DNA from: a virus
Taxonomy: Duplodnaviria; Heunggongvirae; Uroviricota; Caudoviricetes
Length of the DNA stretch: 9,450 bases
IMG/VR virus record: IMGVR_UViG_2711768034_000006
Coordinates: 1-9,450 of that record
Direction: 5' to 3' (one strand)
Below, in pieces: positions 1 to 9,450 of the stretch. Below the pieces are notes generated by a model. The model was not told the DNA's origin and did no database searches. It saw nothing but the letters and a program-made list of their open reading frames with translations. Each line of letters begins with the position of its first letter. Within the stretch, counting starts at the first letter, position 1. Position numbers and translations under genes: made by a program.

Positions 1-3
1 ACG

Positions 4-228
4 TTACGGGCTGGCAAACGGCACGATTTCGGCTGATGCCACCTCCCTGGTGCGATAACTACACAGCAGGTTCCGCCCTAGCTTGACCAGTTCCTGCTGC
101 ACGCCTGGCAGCCGGTCGCGAGCATGGTCTACCGCTTCCTGTTCAGTGGCGAAACCCTCCATAATTTCGGTTTCGGTGTAGGTGCCGTGTTCCGGGTCAA
201 AAGCAATGATATATGCGCGATAACTCAT
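4..228 (-). CDS. Hypothetical small protein (74 aa), last gene of primase operon
   Basis: ATG at 228 preceded by GAGGG Shine-Dalgarno about 8 nt upstream; 10 nt after primase stop; followed (via wrap) by intrinsic terminator; no family recognised. Confidence 0.55.
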   Translation of the reverse strand: MSYRAYIIAFDPEHGTYTETEIMEGFATEQEAVDHARDRLPGVQQELVKLGRNLLCSYRTREVASAEIVPFASP

Positions 229-238
229 GGTTTAGCCC

Positions 239-2554
239 TCAGAACGGTTTATCTTCGCCGTCACCGGCTGTTTCTGTCATCACTTCCTGTGCGTCACACA
301 GGGGCGGCATACCTGCACGCGCCATCTGCGCTTCACGTGACTGCGATTTGCCGTCAGCGTTCAGCCATTTGGCCTTATTGCGCAGAATCCAGCAGCGGCT
401 TGCCTTGCCGTGAACCTTAATCGGCCCATCAATTTGCAGCGCGCCAGCTTCTTCCATTGCGCGGCGCATGGCAGGTGTGAAGCGGCTTTCTTCACCGTCT
501 GACAGCACATTTGCAATGTCACCTTGCGTGATAACGTCAACCGGCCATGACAGCACCAGGCGGTCAGCGTTCTTCTGCGTCATCGACTTCGCAGCGCCAA
601 TCACTGACTGTTTGGCCGCGTTCATCGGCGGGCGTTCGCCAGGGTTAAAGCTGCTTATGTCGCGCTCCGCCAGGAACACAGCCACAGCGTTGATAAACTC
701 GCGGTCGTTCAGCGCAGCATAGAGCGTGGCGTAAACTTCCTGCGGGCGCGGCTCTGCTTCGTGATGCACGATGCGCCAGCGGCGGTCTGTGTCGTCAATC
801 GGCAGCGCGTTAAGGTGGTTACTGAACACCAGCCAGCGCATGGCGTTGTGTTCACGGTGCTGGCGGCCATACTTCGGGTTCACGTCACGATATTCAGCCG
901 TAACGATGCTGCGCAGTTTGTTGGTGTGACTGTAGCGGTTTTCGCTCACCCCGGCCTGAATCTCGTCAACGATGGCCAGAACGCGCCCAGCTAACTGGCC
1001 GTTGAACTGGCTATCAAGCAGGTTAGGCAGGTCCACGTTCGGTGCCACATAGCCACGCCATACGCGCGCCAGGACGCTGGCCAGCCAGTTGCGGCCTGTG
1101 CCGGTTTTGTTGGCCACGTGCAGCCAGCCATAGTGCGGAAGTTCGCCTGGCTTCTGCTCCAGGTGTGCCAGCCAATCCAGGAATTTTTCGCGCTCTATGG
1201 CATCCGGGAATAGGTAGGCTACATGGTCCAGAAACAGGCTGATGCCTGTCGTGGCTTCTTTGCGTTCGAGCGGTCGCCAGGTGTTGATTGCAGGGCGTCC
1301 ATCCGGGTCACGGCAGAAGATGCCCGCGCCAGGGTGGAATGTCCGAGTGATAACCGTTTTGCGCTGCGGGTCTTGTTGCCACAGAACGGCGGTAGGCACC
1401 GGCTTTTTGCGCTCGTCGCTCAGTGTCATTGACGCTGACGTAAGCTGGCGGAATTCCTTCCAGGTCATAAACATTGTTGTGTCATTGACGCTGGCCACCA
1501 TTTCACCGCTTGCGATCCACACCATAGATTCCAGCATTTCTTCGCGGGACATCGACGGCGGCAGGATGCTGACTGTTTCCGGCTGTTGCAGGCGGGCGTT
1601 TTCTTCCTGCTGCAAACGGCGGCGGGTTTCTTCCGCCACGTCAACCACGCCACCAGCGCGCGCATTGTTAAGCGCAGCCAGGACCGCATCAGCACCTTGC
1701 TCCTGGTGCAAATCATTAACATCTTTGCCTTCTGCCAGGTCGGACGGCAGGGTGGCAACCGCAAAGCCAGTGCGGAAAGCGTCAGATTCTTTGCCACGGT
1801 CAGGGACTATGACCGGAACAGCACCAGCGGCCTTGATGATGTCGGCAGCCTTGCGGATGTTGCCAGCACCAAAGGAAACCACGGCAGCGCAGCCGGTGAC
1901 GGCGTTCACGCTCCAGGCGTGGCCGATACCTTCCACGATGTAGGCTTTCTGGCCTTTCTCCAGCTTTCCAGCCGTAAATGTGCCATCCATAGGGCAGCCA
2001 CTGGCGTTGCGCTTCTCTCCTTTGTTTGGCCCTACGAACTGTAAGGAAACCAGGTTTCCGCTTGATGACCAAACAGGGATTGCCAGCCAGCCTTTCAGGC
2101 TTTTGCTTCCGCTCCTGATGTCCTGCGTAACAACGCGCAGGCCGTCAGGCTTGCCCCACTTGCGCATGATGTACGGGTGTTCAGCGGTCGCAGGTTCTGA
2201 CGCAGCCCAAATGTCAATCGGGTTGTGTTTGGCTTTTGGCTTCTCAATAGGTGCCTTTTCCGCCCTGGCTGTTGGGTCATTCCACTGCGCCACGTTACGC
2301 GCCAGCCAGAACAGCGTGTTTTCAGTCACCGAACCGTCAATCTTAAAGCTACCCCAGGCGGAACGCACATCCGCTTCATTGCGGTAGTTGGTTGCGCCCT
2401 GGCTCCAGTTATGGAAGTCATCGAATGACAGGCCAGCAGCCTTTGCAGCGCAGCCAATGCGTGCCCAATCACGGCGTGAACAGTCGTTCGGCAGGGATTC
2501 CAGGGCGCTAAGTGCGCGCTCCATGTTGGTGATTTGGTCGTATGCCAGACTCAT
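239..2554 (-). CDS. Primase / SF3 helicase, phage P4 alpha-like replication initiator (771 aa)
   Basis: Long ORF; N-terminal Trp-rich region; DnaG/Toprim-like EGxxxA motif (IVEGIGHAW, aa 206-214); helicase-like region with Walker B-like LAIVDEIQ (aa 524-531) and SF3 motif C-like LVFSNH (aa 575-580); ATGA start/stop overlap with upstream orf77; GGGGG Shine-Dalgarno. Confidence 0.85.
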   Translation of the reverse strand: MSLAYDQITNMERALSALESLPNDCSRRDWARIGCAAKAAGLSFDDFHNWSQGATNYRNEADVRSAWGSFKIDGSVTENTLFWLARNVAQWNDPTARAEKAPIEKPKAKHNPIDIWAASEPATAEHPYIMRKWGKPDGLRVVTQDIRSGSKSLKGWLAIPVWSSSGNLVSLQFVGPNKGEKRNASGCPMDGTFTAGKLEKGQKAYIVEGIGHAWSVNAVTGCAAVVSFGAGNIRKAADIIKAAGAVPVIVPDRGKESDAFRTGFAVATLPSDLAEGKDVNDLHQEQGADAVLAALNNARAGGVVDVAEETRRRLQQEENARLQQPETVSILPPSMSREEMLESMVWIASGEMVASVNDTTMFMTWKEFRQLTSASMTLSDERKKPVPTAVLWQQDPQRKTVITRTFHPGAGIFCRDPDGRPAINTWRPLERKEATTGISLFLDHVAYLFPDAIEREKFLDWLAHLEQKPGELPHYGWLHVANKTGTGRNWLASVLARVWRGYVAPNVDLPNLLDSQFNGQLAGRVLAIVDEIQAGVSENRYSHTNKLRSIVTAEYRDVNPKYGRQHREHNAMRWLVFSNHLNALPIDDTDRRWRIVHHEAEPRPQEVYATLYAALNDREFINAVAVFLAERDISSFNPGERPPMNAAKQSVIGAAKSMTQKNADRLVLSWPVDVITQGDIANVLSDGEESRFTPAMRRAMEEAGALQIDGPIKVHGKASRCWILRNKAKWLNADGKSQSREAQMARAGMPPLCDAQEVMTETAGDGEDKPF

Positions 2555-3457: not shown

Positions 3458-5734
3458 TTACGGTGCTGCTAATCCGTCATTCATCATGCTACGATTTCGG
3501 ATTCCTTGCTGCTGTTTCAGCTTCTGCGCCACCTTATTTGCCAGCGCATCTTCATTCATGCCAGGCTCGGCCTTCACGTTGATGGTGTACTGGTCGTTCG
3601 TGTTCACCGTTGTGTTGCCGGTGCGGTTAGCCAGTGCCGGTGAAGGCAAGGACGCACCAGGGGCGGCGGTCGCTGCTGGCTGGCTGCTTTCGTCTTCACC
3701 GAACGGATTGCTAAAGAAATCTTTGGTTTTCTGCCACGCACCACCAGCAACATCAGACACGGCGTTTTTAAACTCCAGTGCCTTGTTGGTCAGGTTGCCG
3801 ATGTTGTCAGACACCCACAGAATCTTATCAATCAGGAACGTGATCGGTGCGGTCACAAGCTCGATGCCAGCCGCCAGGGTCTTACCGAACGTCATCCCCA
3901 TTTTACCGGCCTTATCCAGTTCCTCGCCGCTGTATTTGACCGGTTCGGTCAGTGACGTGAACCAGTTGAAAACCGTCTTAACCGCAGCACCCACACCATC
4001 AATGACAGGTTTCAGCGGCCCCATGCGTTCATAAAGGCGGCTCAGAGCTTCGCTAAGCGGTTCCAGCCCGGATTTGATGCCTTCACCCACTCCGCCAAAG
4101 AAAGCCTTCACACCGGCCCAATGGCGGTAAATCTGATAACCTGCCAGCGCCAGGCCAGCTACGGCAGCACCCACGCCAGTGGATATGAACGCCGCACCAA
4201 CGGCACGAATGCCGGTAGCCACCGCAGGCAGGCCACGGGTGCTGGCCAGAACGGCAGATGCGTTCATGCGGGCAAACAGGCTGGACATCTGCAACACGCC
4301 ACCTTTCAGGAACGTGAACGCAAAGCCAGCGGCGAACGTCGCCACACGTAGTGCCACCAGTGCACTGGAACCAATAACCACTGCTTTGGTCACGGTAGGG
4401 TATTCGCGCGCCAGTTCGGCAACCTTGCCGATAACCGGGCCAACGGTAGCCAGAACGCCGTTGAATGCTGGCAGCAGCACTGTGCCGATCGTGACGCCCA
4501 GGTTAGACACACGGTTGTTGAAAATCTTAAGCTGTGCCGACGTTTTGGCGGTGGCTGCCTCATATTCAGCCTGCATAGAACCGGCATATTTGGTCTTGTC
4601 TTTGACCATGTCCAGATTCTTTTGGTACGTATCAAGCTGTGTCAGCATTGGTGCGATAGCGCCAATCGATTCCTTACCAAACAGTTGCGAAAGCGTTGCC
4701 GCCTGCATGTGTTTTGGCAGCTTGCTGATCTTGGACAGGATGACGCGGATTGTTTCATCGGCGTTCAGTTGCATTGATTTTGCAACCTGCTTGGATGTGA
4801 AGCCAAGCTGTTTAAACGCTTCACGCTGTGACTTCGTGGCGGATGCGCCAGCGGTCAGGGATAGCAGCAGGTTTTTAATACCGGTGGCCGCAATCTCATT
4901 CTGCACGCCCATACCGCGCAGCGTTGCACCCATCGCAGCGATAGAACCGGAAGCTGCACCAGCGACGCTGCCAAGCGGCCCGATGCGCTGCGTGATTTCC
5001 AGGATGTCTTTGGCTGATGCGGCGGTGTTGTTGCCCAGGTAGTTGATCTTGTCAGCCAGAACGTTCATCTGGTCCTGCGTCATCCCGAAGGCGGCGCGCA
5101 TCTCTGCCATTGCCTGGCCTGCCTGGTCGGCGCTGACGTCAAAAGCCACACCCATTTTGATGGCCGATTCAGCAAACTTGGTTAGTTCGCTGGTGGCGAT
5201 GCCTGATTGAGCACCAGCGGCAACAATCTTGCCGATTTCGTTGGCTGCCATCGGCATTTTGGTTGACATATCCTGGATAGCCTGGCCCATCTTAACCAGG
5301 CCGTCAGGGGTTTCGAAGTTGGCAACCTTGCGGATATCTGCCAGCGTATCTTCAAAATCCATAGCCTGTTTGATCGGTACAGCTACCGTTGCGCCAAGTG
5401 CGACAGTCCCCAGGATTCCTTCTTTGTAGCCTTGACGCTTCGCCAGGTTGCGTTCGCGGGCATCCTCCACGCGTTTCAGGCGTTCGGTGGCAGAACGAAG
5501 GCGTTCAACCTGCCCGACAACCGTTTGATAGCGGTCCTTCATGCGGGAGAATATCGCGCTATCCTGGCCATAACGCTTCATTGCTTCATTTAACTGGCGC
5601 TGTTCGCGCGACAGCTTAGAGATTGCGCTACCAATCTCGACGGTATTTTTCTTTACAGTTCCAAATGCACCACGAAGGCTGCCGGAAACGGCCCCACCAA
5701 TCGTGATTTTTGCATTTAACTTCTTGTTGGCCAT
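3458..5734 (-). CDS. Phage tail tape-measure protein-like (758 aa)
   Basis: Coiled-coil, A/G/Q-rich N-terminal half typical of tape-measure core regions; long central hydrophobic Gly/Ala-rich segment (about aa 440-540); size typical of siphovirus tape-measure proteins; ATG at 5734. Confidence 0.75.
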   Translation of the reverse strand: MANKKLNAKITIGGAVSGSLRGAFGTVKKNTVEIGSAISKLSREQRQLNEAMKRYGQDSAIFSRMKDRYQTVVGQVERLRSATERLKRVEDARERNLAKRQGYKEGILGTVALGATVAVPIKQAMDFEDTLADIRKVANFETPDGLVKMGQAIQDMSTKMPMAANEIGKIVAAGAQSGIATSELTKFAESAIKMGVAFDVSADQAGQAMAEMRAAFGMTQDQMNVLADKINYLGNNTAASAKDILEITQRIGPLGSVAGAASGSIAAMGATLRGMGVQNEIAATGIKNLLLSLTAGASATKSQREAFKQLGFTSKQVAKSMQLNADETIRVILSKISKLPKHMQAATLSQLFGKESIGAIAPMLTQLDTYQKNLDMVKDKTKYAGSMQAEYEAATAKTSAQLKIFNNRVSNLGVTIGTVLLPAFNGVLATVGPVIGKVAELAREYPTVTKAVVIGSSALVALRVATFAAGFAFTFLKGGVLQMSSLFARMNASAVLASTRGLPAVATGIRAVGAAFISTGVGAAVAGLALAGYQIYRHWAGVKAFFGGVGEGIKSGLEPLSEALSRLYERMGPLKPVIDGVGAAVKTVFNWFTSLTEPVKYSGEELDKAGKMGMTFGKTLAAGIELVTAPITFLIDKILWVSDNIGNLTNKALEFKNAVSDVAGGAWQKTKDFFSNPFGEDESSQPAATAAPGASLPSPALANRTGNTTVNTNDQYTINVKAEPGMNEDALANKVAQKLKQQQGIRNRSMMNDGLAAP

Positions 5735-8085: not shown

Positions 8086-8219
8086 TAAAAATGCTCCGGT
8101 TGTTGTGCAATAAATCGTCTGGAATGACTTAAAGATATACAGTAACCAGACCGAACACAATAGCCACAATGTGAGCTTTTTAATGTAAAATCAGTAACTT
8201 ATAACCCTGAATACTTGCA

Positions 8220-8249
8220 AATAACCAGGCATAATCCGGCGTAATCGAT
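8220..8249. repeat. Second copy of the phased 10-bp repeat array (AATAACCAGG / CATAATCCGG / CGTAATCGAT) upstream of operon 2
   Basis: Shares the 17-mer CATAATCCGGC[A/G]TAATCG with 3365-3381. Confidence 0.45.
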
Positions 8250-8379
8250 ATTTACACATCTTTACAATTCAGCATGTGTAAAACGTGTTCGCTTTATTTT
8301 GCAATCGCGCACGTATGGTGCCAGTGCTTTGATAAGGTTCACATAAATGATTGATTTACTTGACGTAATCATAAAGTGA

Positions 8380-8570
8380 GTTTTGGAGGGGCACGCACAA
8401 CGCGAATTACGCGGGACCAATGCCCCCGCCCTGTACTGCCGCCGAGGAGGACCCTTCGATTTTTGAGGCAGGCAGGCGGCCAGGCGGTGCGCGCAAGGTC
8501 CATTATGTTAAATCGCGGAGTTTGCAGGCAGAAAGAAGCACCAGGAAGGTGCTGGCAGGCGAACGGCGCA
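8380..8570. other. GC-rich non-coding island with nested short hairpins (candidate cos/pac site or structured RNA)
   Basis: Abrupt GC-rich stretch inside an AT-rich intergenic region; inverted repeats GGGGCA/TGCCCC (8388-8426), CGCG-aatta-CGCG (8401-8413), AGCACC-aggaa-GGTGCT (8537-8553); both overlapping ORFs translate to non-protein-like sequence. Confidence 0.3.
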
Positions 8571-9065
8571 TAATCTGACATATTCCGCGCGCTTTCAGCC
8601 CGTATTCACTCAGGCTTATTGTTGCGATATGTGCAACGTTCTGGCTGTTTACTGAACAGCTACTGTTTGAACGCAAAACAAGGCTGAAAGGCTCGTTTCC
8701 TGTAGTTACATCATACTTCTGTATGTTGTACCTATTCCGGCTGCTGCTTTGGTTAGACGTGAAAAAGCGTGGTTACGAATGAGCGGACCACCACCAGCAC
8801 CCATGCCGCCCAGGCACCCCATCCGGTTACAACGCTGAATTGAGTTGTAACCGTGTTATGTTTCTGAAAAATAACAAATTTCGTGCAATCGGTTACAACG
8901 GTTACGCCAAGTTCATAAAGTTTGGAAAAAGCACTATGGGTATATAGGAATATACGAATTTCTTTTTTTTACTAATCTGTTGTAACCATTGTAACCGGAA
9001 TGGGTAAAATCATTAATATTCAGTGGCTTGCGTGGTTACAACGCCGGTTACAACACCGATTTTGC

Positions 9066-9092
9066 GTTGTAACCGTTGTAACCGTTGTAACC
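9066..9092. repeat. Three perfect tandem copies of GTTGTAACC
   Basis: Read directly. Confidence 0.9.
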
Positions 9093-9103
9093 GTAGTAGG
9101 CAT

Positions 9104-9129
9104 AAAAAAGCCCCGGCAGATGCCAGGGC
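9104..9129 (-). terminator. Intrinsic terminator ending the primase operon
   Basis: Minus-strand RNA GCCCUGGC-AUCU-GCCGGGGC (8-bp stem with one G-U, 4-nt loop) followed by UUUUUU, 25 nt after orf74 stop. Confidence 0.55.
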
Positions 9130-9151
9130 GGTCAGAACAAAAATTGTTGTA

Positions 9152-9450
9152 ACGTTACGGGCTGGCAAACGGCACGATTTCGGCTGATGCCACCTCCCTG
9201 GTGCGATAACTACACAGCAGGTTCCGCCCTAGCTTGACCAGTTCCTGCTGCACGCCTGGCAGCCGGTCGCGAGCATGGTCTACCGCTTCCTGTTCAGTGG
9301 CGAAACCCTCCATAATTTCGGTTTCGGTGTAGGTGCCGTGTTCCGGGTCAAAAGCAATGATATATGCGCGATAACTCATGGTTTAGCCCTCAGAACGGTT
9401 TATCTTCGCCGTCACCGGCTGTTTCTGTCATCACTTCCTGTGCGTCACAC
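9152..9450. repeat. Wrap-around duplicate of window positions 1-299
   Basis: Identical sequence; the ORF track lists the same 74-aa protein at 4..228 and 9155..9379. Confidence 0.9.
9155..9379 (-). CDS. Second copy of the 74-aa hypothetical protein (same locus as 4..228 via wrap-around)
   Basis: Identical translation in ORF track. Confidence 0.55.
   Translation of the reverse strand: MSYRAYIIAFDPEHGTYTETEIMEGFATEQEAVDHARDRLPGVQQELVKLGRNLLCSYRTREVASAEIVPFASP

What the first reader, a model, noticed from the sequence alone, without database searches (positions are those of the whole stretch)
8771..9154. Dense iteron array of a 9-mer in both orientations beside AT-rich tracts: candidate origin
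There are nine exact and at least four near copies of GGTTACAAC/GTTGTAACC within about 380 bp. These include a perfect triple tandem at 9066-9092, a 12-bp-spaced direct pair at 9034-9054, and a convergent inverted pair at 8825-8852, interleaved with AT-rich stretches. This resembles the short iterons in P4 ori/crr that the alpha C-terminal domain binds, but with a different repeat sequence, suggesting a distinct specificity.
Basis: partly seen in the sequence, partly recalled or inferred. Interest (0 to 1): 0.6.

Follow-up and report, generated by a model that had tools for sequence, protein, structure and literature searches.

The report
Satellite-type iteron replication origin
The cluster of GGTTACAAC repeats is very probably the replication origin of a small 9.2-kb circular phage-satellite-like plasmid, read by the primase-helicase gene just upstream of it; this is a known kind of origin (phage-inducible chromosomal islands, P4 crr) with a repeat sequence that has not been described.

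Summary
All nine exact GGTTACAAC/GTTGTAACC copies lie in 8825-9092 (0.07 expected), plus two degenerate copies. The window is a complete 9151-bp circle, closed by a 299-bp terminal overlap.

On the circle the array follows the primase-helicase gene (2554->239, minus strand), a 74-aa ORF and an intrinsic terminator. Inward-facing repeat pairs flank a 70-bp spacer of 26% GC. That spacer overlaps the least stable 50-bp duplex of the molecule.

The main evidence is comparative. Near-identical backbones (plasmids and islands at E. coli fis/yhdJ) hold different repeats in the same slot: GGTTACAAC, AGGTGTCA or GGGGAACA. Repeat type changes with the replicase type. An 87%-identical primase keeps the 9-mers (89/90 columns) while the spacers drift (128/178).

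Primase homologues at 53-56% identity, the tested EcCICFT073 PICI origin and P4 crr share the order primase, terminator, two-orientation short repeats.

Verdict: a PICI-type, primase-helicase-dependent iteron origin, so a new member of a known kind. Near-copies at 8771 and 9146 are probably not iterons. Binding and replication were not tested, and the iteron-reading domain is only inferred.

The parts
8825..9092 (.). Iteron array, the proposed origin core: 9 exact and 2 degenerate 9-mers in both orientations.
   Evidence: Enrichment is 9 observed against 0.07 expected. The repeats are conserved in L001, L002 and L064.
8825..8852 (.). Convergent iteron pair: GGTTACAAC at 8825(+) and GTTGTAACC at 8844(-), 10 bp apart.
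   Evidence: (I11).
8891..8908 (+). Tandem pair GGTTACAAC-GGTTACGCC (the second copy is degenerate). It forms the left arm facing the AT-rich spacer.
   Evidence: (I1 arms 8890-8919 / 8968-8997); invariant in the alignment.
8909..8978 (.). AT-rich spacer (26% GC), the proposed DNA-unwinding element.
   Evidence: the least stable 50-bp duplex of the whole 9151-bp circle is 8941-8990, and one of the two lowest-GC 60-bp windows is 8912-8971. Its sequence diverges from L064 while the flanking iterons are invariant.
8979..8996 (-). Tandem pair GTTGTAACC-ATTGTAACC (the second copy is degenerate). It forms the right arm facing the AT-rich spacer.
9034..9054 (+). Direct pair of GGTTACAAC with 12-bp start-to-start spacing.
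9066..9092 (-). Perfect triple tandem of the 9-mer (GTTGTAACC x3 on the + strand). Two of the three repeat types on this backbone have the same perfect triple in the equivalent place with their own 9-mer.
   Evidence: One search shows ATAGGTGTC x3 in L003/L005 and AGGGGGAAC x3 in L004 at the same position; L001 and L002 keep the GTTGTAACC triple. One search shows that the chromosomal islands L006/L007 have only a double there.
9110..9129 (-). Intrinsic terminator (8-bp stem, 7 G-C pairs, then TTTTTTAT) that ends the primase operon. The first iteron begins 17 bp downstream.
   Evidence: It is conserved in all relatives whatever their repeat type.
9155..9379 (-). 74-aa ORF between the primase gene and the array. 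It is the same gene as 4-228, duplicated by the circular overlap. It is not the specificity determinant.
   Evidence: In one search the small proteins of L003 and L004 are nearly identical, yet their repeats differ.
239..2554 (-). Primase-helicase of 771 aa (PriCT-2, Toprim, then a DUF5906/NrS-1-like SF3 helicase), the proposed initiator.
   Evidence: Pfam; PHROGs DNA primase; helicase domain matches the NrS-1 C-terminal region 6k9c, 7e-14; homologues.
362..583 (-). Predicted winged-helix-like domain in the primase C-terminal region (about residues 658-731), a candidate iteron reader. This role is inferred.
1..299 (.). Exact copy of 9152-9450. This is the assembly overlap showing that the window is a closed circle of 9151 bp.

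Best explanation
The array at 8825-9092 is the vegetative replication origin of a 9151-bp circular, phage-satellite-like plasmid. It is the same kind of origin as in phage-inducible chromosomal islands (PICIs) and resembles P4 crr.

Proposed mechanism:
1. The element's own 771-aa primase-helicase is made from the operon that ends at the terminator 17 bp before the array.
2. It recognises the 9-bp sites GGTTACAAC. The sites are arranged as inward-facing sets around a 70-bp AT-rich spacer, with further clustered sites on both sides, including a triple tandem.
3. Occupying sites of both orientations would assemble the SF3 helicase on both sides of the spacer.
4. The spacer, the least stable duplex in the molecule, melts.
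5. The Toprim domain primes, and the host polymerase extends.

What is shown here: the repeats, their enrichment and anatomy; the position after the primase operon; the strict pairing of repeat type with replicase type; and selective conservation of the repeats.

What is inferred: that the primase-helicase is the protein that binds; which of its domains does so (a predicted C-terminal winged helix is the candidate); double-sided helicase loading; and melting at the spacer.
For: Statistics and anatomy
- 9 exact copies against 0.07 expected, all within 268 bp.
- The window is a circle. On the minus strand the order is primase 2554->239, 74-aa ORF, terminator 9129->9110, then the array.
- The AT-rich spacer 8909-8978 has 26% GC, against 54% for the element. 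It overlaps the least stable 50-bp duplex of the circle.

Cassette co-variation on one backbone
- The flanks are conserved in all relatives, but the slot holds different repeats.
- GGTTACAAC goes with the DUF5906-type primase (window, L001, L002).
- AGGTGTCA goes with a VapE-type replicase (L003, L005, and the chromosomal islands L006, L007, L091).
- GGGGAACA goes with another VapE-type replicase (L004).
- The layout is the same in each, and two of the three types carry a perfect triple tandem (the islands L006/L007 have only a double).
- The element-by-repeat matrix shows no enrichment of any type off its own element: 8-11 copies of the own type and 0-1 of the others.

Which part of the replicase tracks the repeats
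- L003 and L006 share only their C-terminal 410 aa (62% identity), and they share the repeat.
- The window and L004 share the Toprim region (46-63%) but differ in the helicase, the C-terminus and the repeat.

Purifying selection
- Against L064, whose primase is 87% identical, 89 of 90 repeat columns are identical but only 128 of 178 spacer columns (Fisher p = 3.6e-9).

Distant relatives and known systems
- Primase homologues at 56% and 53% identity sit in int-alpA-primase islands. After their terminators they carry their own inverted repeat sets: GGTAACGG, and GGTGTGTG around an AT-rich spacer.
- The EcCICFT073 origin, tested by deletion and by supplying primase in trans (PMC6092414; bioRxiv 10.1101/2022.09.30.509847), shows the same syntax when read here, with TGTCTACC repeats.
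- P4 crr lies directly after the alpha terminator and has 8-mers in both orientations.

Candidate binding domain
- A winged-helix-like fold is predicted in the primase C-terminal region.
Against: - No experiment exists on this element. Binding, melting and primase dependence are inferred from comparison.
- A 74-aa ORF lies between the primase and the array, unlike EcCICFT073.
- The putative recognition helix of the predicted winged helix (TPAMRRAMEE) is nearly invariant among homologues whose downstream repeats differ. Specificity may therefore lie in the wing or in another domain.
- Neighbouring sites at 9- and 12-bp spacing lie on different faces of the helix. That is unusual for classical iteron plasmids, though it is seen in PICI origins and P4.
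- The circular records could be excised or replicating satellite DNA rather than stably maintained plasmids.
Confidence: 0.85

Rival explanations
1. The array is a plasmid partition (centromere-like) site, or purely a copy-number and incompatibility (handcuffing) locus. It would be bound by a small DNA-binding protein and would not be the site of initiation.
For: Clustered short repeats in both orientations also occur in plasmid centromeres. The element exists as a free circle, and one record is a dimer. A small ORF lies next to the array.
Against: No ParA, ParM or ParR-like domain was found in any ORF. The same kind of array is present in integrated chromosomal islands, which do not need partition. 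The adjacent small protein is nearly identical in L003 and L004 although their repeats differ. The repeats follow the replicase type instead. A secondary copy-control role is not excluded.
Confidence: 0.05
2. The array is a set of operators or a regulatory region that controls transcription of the downstream structural-like operon (the 322-aa ORF through to the tape measure gene) or of the primase operon.
For: It is intergenic and lies upstream, on the minus strand, of the next gene block. Initiators often autoregulate through their iterons.
Against: It lies after the primase terminator, about 650 bp from the next start codon. No sigma-70-like promoter was found in 8100-9450. The downstream genes and the 600 bp in front of them are conserved regardless of repeat type, so the repeats do not follow the genes they would regulate.
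Confidence: 0.05
3. The array is a packaging signal (a pac or cos-like recognition site) used to load the satellite DNA into helper-phage capsids.
For: The element looks like a phage satellite: it has a tape-measure-like gene and int-alpA-primase relatives. Small-terminase sites can be repeated short motifs.
Against: No terminase gene is found in the element. The repeat type changes with the replicase cassette, while the rest of the element, which would determine helper compatibility, stays constant. The architecture matches tested origins.
Confidence: 0.03
4. The repeats are a chance or low-complexity feature, or remnants of slippage, with no function.
For: The triple tandem could arise by slippage.
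Against: 0 of 200 shuffles reach 9 copies. Both orientations are present. The repeats are conserved (89/90 columns) while the spacers drift. Parallel arrays with other 9-mers occupy the same slot.
Confidence: 0.01

Closest known systems
PICI replication origin (pri-rep-ori module; SaPI origins; E. coli EcCICFT073, Fillol-Salom et al. 2018, PMC6092414)
   Same: - A single cluster of short (8-9 bp) repeats in both orientations lies 3' of the primase/replication-initiator gene.
- Repeat sets flank an AT-rich segment.
- Repeat sequences are allele-specific and paired with the initiator.
- Relatives of the window element have the PICI gene order int-alpA-primase.
- The EcCICFT073 origin read here has about 13 copies of the TGTCTACC core (5 of them exact), with the same syntax.
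   Different: - The repeat sequence differs: GGTTACAAC.
- The initiator has a different architecture (PriCT-2, Toprim, DUF5906 SF3 helicase) and shows no BLASTP similarity to the CFT073 primase.
- A 74-aa ORF and a terminator lie between the gene and the array.
- The window element has no integrase or alpA and is a free 9.2-kb circle.
- It carries a tape-measure-like gene.
Satellite phage P4 crr and ori with alpha protein
   Same: - Both have a primase-helicase fusion with a Toprim primase domain (27% identity over about 180 aa, E 1e-10).
- An array of about 300 bp with 8-bp repeats in both orientations lies directly after the primase terminator (P4 crr 4291-4590, t-alpha 4604-4628).
- In P4 a C-terminal domain of the initiator binds the repeats. 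This is from established knowledge of P4 alpha, not tested here.
   Different: - P4 needs two separated clusters (ori and crr, about 4.5 kb apart), whereas the window has one.
- The P4 repeat is TGTTCACC. The window has 2 copies of it, at chance level and outside the array.
- The helicase and C-terminal regions show no detectable sequence similarity.
Classical iteron plasmids (pSC101, F, R6K, P1, RK2; Rep_3/RepA-type initiators)
   Same: Initiator-specific repeated sites lie next to an AT-rich unwinding element. These plasmids use such sites for copy control and incompatibility.
   Different: - Their iterons are 17-22 bp, direct, and spaced in phase with the DNA helix.
- Their initiator is a winged-helix Rep that recruits host DnaB and DnaG, usually with DnaA boxes.
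- Here the sites are 9-mers in both orientations, no Rep_3-type protein is present, DnaA boxes are not above chance, and the initiator brings its own helicase and primase.

Membership tests
PICI-type origin (pri-rep-ori) | The origin lies immediately 3' of the primase/replication-initiator gene. | tested here: met
   On the 9151-bp circle the order is primase 2554->239, 74-aa ORF, terminator 9129->9110, array 9092->8825. A short ORF intervenes, which is a minor departure.
PICI-type origin (pri-rep-ori) | Two sets of short iterons flank an AT-rich region (PMC6092414, Fig. 2a legend). | tested here: met
   Pairs 8891/8900(+) and 8979/8988(-) face each other across the 8909-8978 spacer (26% GC), which overlaps the least stable duplex of the circle. 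Further sets lie on both sides.
PICI-type origin (pri-rep-ori) | The iteron sequence is specific to the cognate initiator allele. | tested here: met
   Three repeat types pair with three replicase types on one backbone, and no element is enriched for a type other than its own. This evidence is comparative, not biochemical.
PICI-type origin (pri-rep-ori) | The initiator plus the origin drive autonomous replication. | not testable with these tools
   Only indirect evidence is available. The same module occurs on complete circular records of 8.9-9.3 kb that have no other recognisable replicon. MOB-suite lists no replicon type for them.
PICI (the element as a whole) | An integrase and an AlpA-type activator lie upstream of pri-rep, and the element is integrated at a specific att site. 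| tested here: not met
   No ORF of at least 50 aa is large enough to be an integrase other than the primase, the tape measure protein and the 322-aa ORF, none of which matched one, and no AlpA domain was found in the ten ORFs scanned. The window is a closed circle. Relatives L006, L007, L091 and L066 do have int and alpA.
P4 ori/crr | Type I repeat TGTTCACC. | tested here: not met
   The window has 2 copies, none in the array. P4 has 11.
P4 ori/crr | Two cis sites (ori and crr) separated by several kb. | tested here: not met
   All 9 exact copies lie in one 268-bp cluster, with none elsewhere on the circle.
P4 ori/crr | An alpha-type primase-helicase initiator. | tested here: inconclusive
   The Toprim region is homologous (27% identity, E 1e-10). 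The helicase and C-terminal regions are not detectably similar by BLASTP.
P4 ori/crr | A C-terminal winged-helix domain of the initiator binds the repeats. | tested here: inconclusive
Classical iteron plasmid origin (Rep_3/RepA type) | A Rep_3/RepA-type initiator, 17-22 bp direct iterons and DnaA boxes. | tested here: not met
   No such Pfam domain was found. The repeats are 9-mers in both orientations. DnaA-box matches are at or below chance.

The most novel reading that the evidence does not exclude
The window may be an integrase-less derivative of a PICI-like satellite that lives permanently as a plasmid, and it carries its own tape-measure-like gene. In that case the array would serve both as the origin and as the incompatibility and copy-control determinant. 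The wholesale swapping of replicase-plus-repeat cassettes seen on one backbone would be driven by competition between co-resident satellites or plasmids, that is, by escape from incompatibility. The result would be a natural set of mutually orthogonal primase-origin pairs.
Probability: 0.3. Interest if true: 0.55.

Novelty: new member of a known kind. Interest (0 to 1): 0.35.

Why it matters
Three points give it some value.

1. It assigns a replicon to a group of about 9-kb enterobacterial plasmids (E. coli, Salmonella, Proteus) for which the plasmid database lists no replicon type.

2. The family offers a natural specificity-swap series. Near-identical backbones carry three different replicase-and-repeat cassettes, and more distant homologues carry further repeat types. 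That is good material for working out how primase-helicase initiators read their origins.

3. Primase-dependent PICI origins are already used as conditional origins for non-replicating DNA payloads (bioRxiv 10.1101/2022.09.30.509847). This primase gene was not found in any of 5,426 complete E. coli genomes. The pair could therefore serve as a rarer, orthogonal conditional origin.

It does not reveal a new mechanism.

Tried and rejected
- **Rfam scan of the whole window at E <= 1:** no match. No known RNA explains the region.
- **DnaA boxes:** matches are at or below chance, with no convincing box in the array.
- **Sigma-70 promoter scan of 8100-9450:** none found.
- **Scan of 185,579 species genomes for the double 9-mer:** 54 loci, none encoding a relative of the window primase (tblastn). 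Most are single occurrences in unrelated phyla, which I read as probable chance matches. One Escherichia locus (L054) belongs to a different element.
- **Same scan of IMG/VR:** 22 loci, again none with this primase or backbone.
- **Literature search for the 9-mer:** it appears only in primers and unrelated sequences.
- **The 74-aa ORF next to the array as the repeat reader:** considered and rejected, because L003 and L004 have nearly the same small protein but different repeats.
- **First attempt to locate EcCICFT073:** it fetched a lambdoid prophage instead. The island was found upstream of phoQ.

Full report
**1. The observation**

The 9-mer GGTTACAAC and its complement occur nine times exactly. 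All nine lie between 8825 and 9092, and there are none elsewhere in the window. Dinucleotide-preserving shuffles give 0.07 expected copies, and none of 200 shuffles reaches nine.

- a perfect triple tandem at 9066-9092;
- a direct pair 12 bp apart at 9034/9046;
- a convergent pair at 8825/8844.

Allowing mismatches adds two degenerate copies in tandem with exact ones: 8900 GGTTACGCC and 8988 ATTGTAACC.

The stretches between the repeats are AT-rich. 8853-8890 has 29% GC and 8909-8978 has 26%, against 54% for the element.

8771 lies in a flank that is identical in relatives carrying quite different repeats. 9146 is not conserved in relatives that share the 9-mer.

**2. Context**

The first 299 bases of the window are identical to the last 299. 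The window is therefore a closed circle of 9151 bp. ORF 4-228 is the same gene as ORF 9155-9379.

All the large genes are on the minus strand.
- 2554->239 encodes a 771-aa primase-helicase. It has PriCT-2, Toprim and DUF5906 domains. It matches PHROGs DNA primase families. Its helicase part matches the NrS-1 C-terminal helicase region, 6k9c, at 7e-14.
- 5734->3458 encodes a tape-measure-like protein.

On the circle the array is not 6 kb from the primase but directly downstream of it. The order is primase, a 74-aa ORF, an intrinsic terminator at 9129->9110 followed by a T run, and 17 bp later the first repeat.

**3. Relatives**

The backbone is known from several complete circular plasmids of about 9 kb:
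- Proteus mirabilis pW47-1;
- E. coli pECQ4552_IHU03, which is a dimer;
- pSCU-121-2 and pM121-3;
- a Salmonella 9.3-kb plasmid.

It also occurs as islands in 65 complete E. coli chromosomes. In the three islands I fetched, the element is integrated between fis and yhdJ. There the same genes follow an integrase, an AlpA-type regulator and a VapE-type replicase. That is the gene order of Gram-negative phage-inducible chromosomal islands. The window element itself has no integrase or alpA.

**4. The decisive comparison**

In all these relatives the DNA to the left of the array (up to about 8787) and the terminator to its right are conserved. The slot between them holds different repeats.

| Elements | Replicase | Repeat |
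|---|---|---|
| Window, pW47-1 (L001), pECQ4552_IHU03 (L002) | DUF5906-type primase-helicase | GGTTACAAC, 8-9 exact |
| pSCU-121-2 (L003), Salmonella plasmid (L005) | 762-aa PriCT-2/Toprim/VapE protein | AGGTGTCA, 11 copies |
| Chromosomal islands L006, L007, L091 | 562-aa VapE protein | AGGTGTCA, 8-9 copies |
| pM121-3 (L004) | a third replicase | GGGGAACA, 11 copies |

The layout is the same in each case. There are sites in both orientations and an AT-rich stretch between inward-facing sites. L001-L005 also have a perfect triple tandem of a 9-mer; the islands L006/L007 have a double there. A count of every repeat type in every element gives 8-11 copies of an element's own type and 0-1 of the others.

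The replicases were compared domain by domain.
- L003 and L006 share only their C-terminal 410 residues (62% identity), and they share the repeat.
- The window and L004 share the Toprim region (46-63%) but differ in the helicase, the C-terminus and the repeat.
- The small ORF next to the array is nearly identical in L003 and L004, whose repeats differ.

Repeat type thus follows the C-terminal half of the replicase.

**5. Selection on the repeats**

A metagenomic relative (L064/L065) encodes a primase 87% identical to the window's. It has nine exact copies of the same 9-mer downstream of its terminator. In the alignment of the two arrays, 89 of 90 repeat columns are identical against 128 of 178 spacer columns. 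Fisher's exact test gives p = 3.6e-9. The AT-rich spacer keeps its composition but not its sequence.

**6. More distant homologues and known systems**

Primases 56% and 53% identical to the window's lie in int-alpA/HTH-primase islands. After their terminators they carry their own inverted repeat sets:
- L066: GGTAACGG x3 facing CCGTTACC x2;
- L067: CCACACAC facing GGTGTGTG x4 across an AT-rich spacer.

The origin of the E. coli CFT073 island has been tested experimentally. One study used deletion of ori or of pri-rep (PMC6092414, read). Another supplied the primase in trans (bioRxiv 10.1101/2022.09.30.509847). I located that island and read the intergenic 288 bp after its primase gene. It contains about 13 copies of the TGTCTACC/GGTAGACA core, 5 of them exact, in both orientations, with an AT-rich stretch.

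The P4 record annotates crr at 4291-4590, directly after the alpha terminator (4604-4628). It has ten 8-bp type 1 repeats in both orientations. The syntax primase operon, terminator, short two-orientation repeats around AT-rich DNA is therefore shared. The window array is another instance of it.

**7. How it probably works**

The inward-facing pairs 8891/8900(+) and 8979/8988(-) bracket the 70-bp spacer 8909-8978. The least stable 50-bp duplex of the whole circle is 8941-8990.

I infer the following sequence. The primase-helicase binds the 9-mers. It assembles on both sides of the spacer and melts it. It primes with its Toprim domain, and host polymerase takes over. No DnaA boxes stand out, which fits an initiator that brings its own helicase and primase.

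One caveat applies. The putative recognition helix (TPAMRRAMEE) is almost invariant among homologues whose repeats differ. Specificity may therefore reside in the wing or in another part of the C-terminal half. This step is inferred, not shown.

**8. Rivals**

- **Partition or copy-control site only.** This is unlikely. No Par-like protein is present, and integrated islands carry the same kind of array. A secondary copy-control role cannot be excluded.
- **Operator function for the downstream genes.** This does not fit. Those genes and the 600 bp in front of them stay constant while the repeats change.
- **Packaging site.** This does not fit the co-variation with the replicase either.
- **Chance.** It is excluded.

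**9. Comparison and novelty**

The array meets the sequence-level defining features of a PICI-type origin: position, two sets around an AT-rich region, and allele-specific repeats. The element as a whole is not a canonical PICI, because it lacks int and alpA and is a free circle.

It is not a member of the P4 ori/crr family. It has a different repeat and a single cluster, and only the Toprim region is homologous to alpha. It is not a classical Rep_3-type iteron plasmid either.

The particular pair, GGTTACAAC with this DUF5906-type primase-helicase, was not found in the literature searched. The primase gene is absent from 5,426 complete E. coli genomes, apart from a partial Toprim match in pM121-3.

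I rate it a new member of a known kind, of moderate-to-low interest. The most useful aspect is the natural series of swapped replicase-origin cassettes on one backbone.

Noticed in passing
window 1-299 and 9152-9450; whole window: The window is a complete 9151-bp circle with a 299-bp assembly overlap. It corresponds to a group of untyped enterobacterial plasmids of about 9 kb. It also corresponds to int-alpA-replicase islands integrated between fis and yhdJ in E. coli. The plasmid form lacks integrase and alpA, so it looks like a phage satellite living as a plasmid. I found no description of this in the literature searched.
   Followed up: partly
window 3458-5734 (-): A 758-aa tape-measure-like protein (PhageMin_Tail 3.5e-39; phrog_28 1.5e-129) is encoded by a 9-kb element that has no other recognisable virion gene. 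It is conserved as the last gene of the chromosomal islands. A satellite carrying its own tape measure could alter or exploit the helper phage's tail assembly. Function is unknown.
   Followed up: partly
window 239-262 (-), the C-terminus of the primase; also L003, L004 and many homologues: All three replicase types end in -PF (DGEDKPF, ETQGPF, NERPF). Many homologues end in acidic-x-P-(F/I). This resembles the C-terminal tip of bacterial SSB (DDDIPF) and may be a docking tail for host replication proteins. The resemblance is from memory and was not tested.
   Followed up: no
window 8170-8787: About 600 bp without a convincing gene lies between the 322-aa ORF and the array. Most of it is conserved in all plasmid relatives regardless of replicase type, and it is partly deleted in the chromosomal islands. 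It contains GC-rich hairpin-like segments and one perfect DnaA-box-like match at 8275-8283, which is at chance level. There is no Rfam match. It could hold a promoter or a packaging or att-related site.
   Followed up: partly
L054 4680-4990 (Escherichia sp. MOD1-EC7003); IMG/VR loci L068, L071, L079, L080, L085: An unrelated mobile element has an array of about 300 bp built on the same core, GGTTACA(AC)/TGTAACC. The array is bounded by a GC-rich inverted repeat. It lies next to an integrase, a 574-aa ORF with no Pfam match and a P2-family capsid gene. No similarity to the window primase was detected. This may be convergent use of a similar site.
   Followed up: partly
L046 5803-6264 (Alistipes senegalensis MAG): Thirteen exact copies of the same 9-mer, in both orientations, lie within 460 bp of a Bacteroidota contig. 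The context was not examined.
   Followed up: no
L002 (CP077066.1, 17,382 bp): This deposited plasmid is a head-to-tail dimer of the 9-kb unit, with two copies of every gene. That fits either a multimeric replicating form or an assembly artefact.
   Followed up: no
L006 13761-14090 (+), L007 13760-14077 (+), L091 9987-10316 (+): RefSeq annotates a hypothetical protein of about 105-110 aa across the repeat array of the chromosomal islands. Given the repeat structure, this is probably a spurious gene call over the origin.
   Followed up: no
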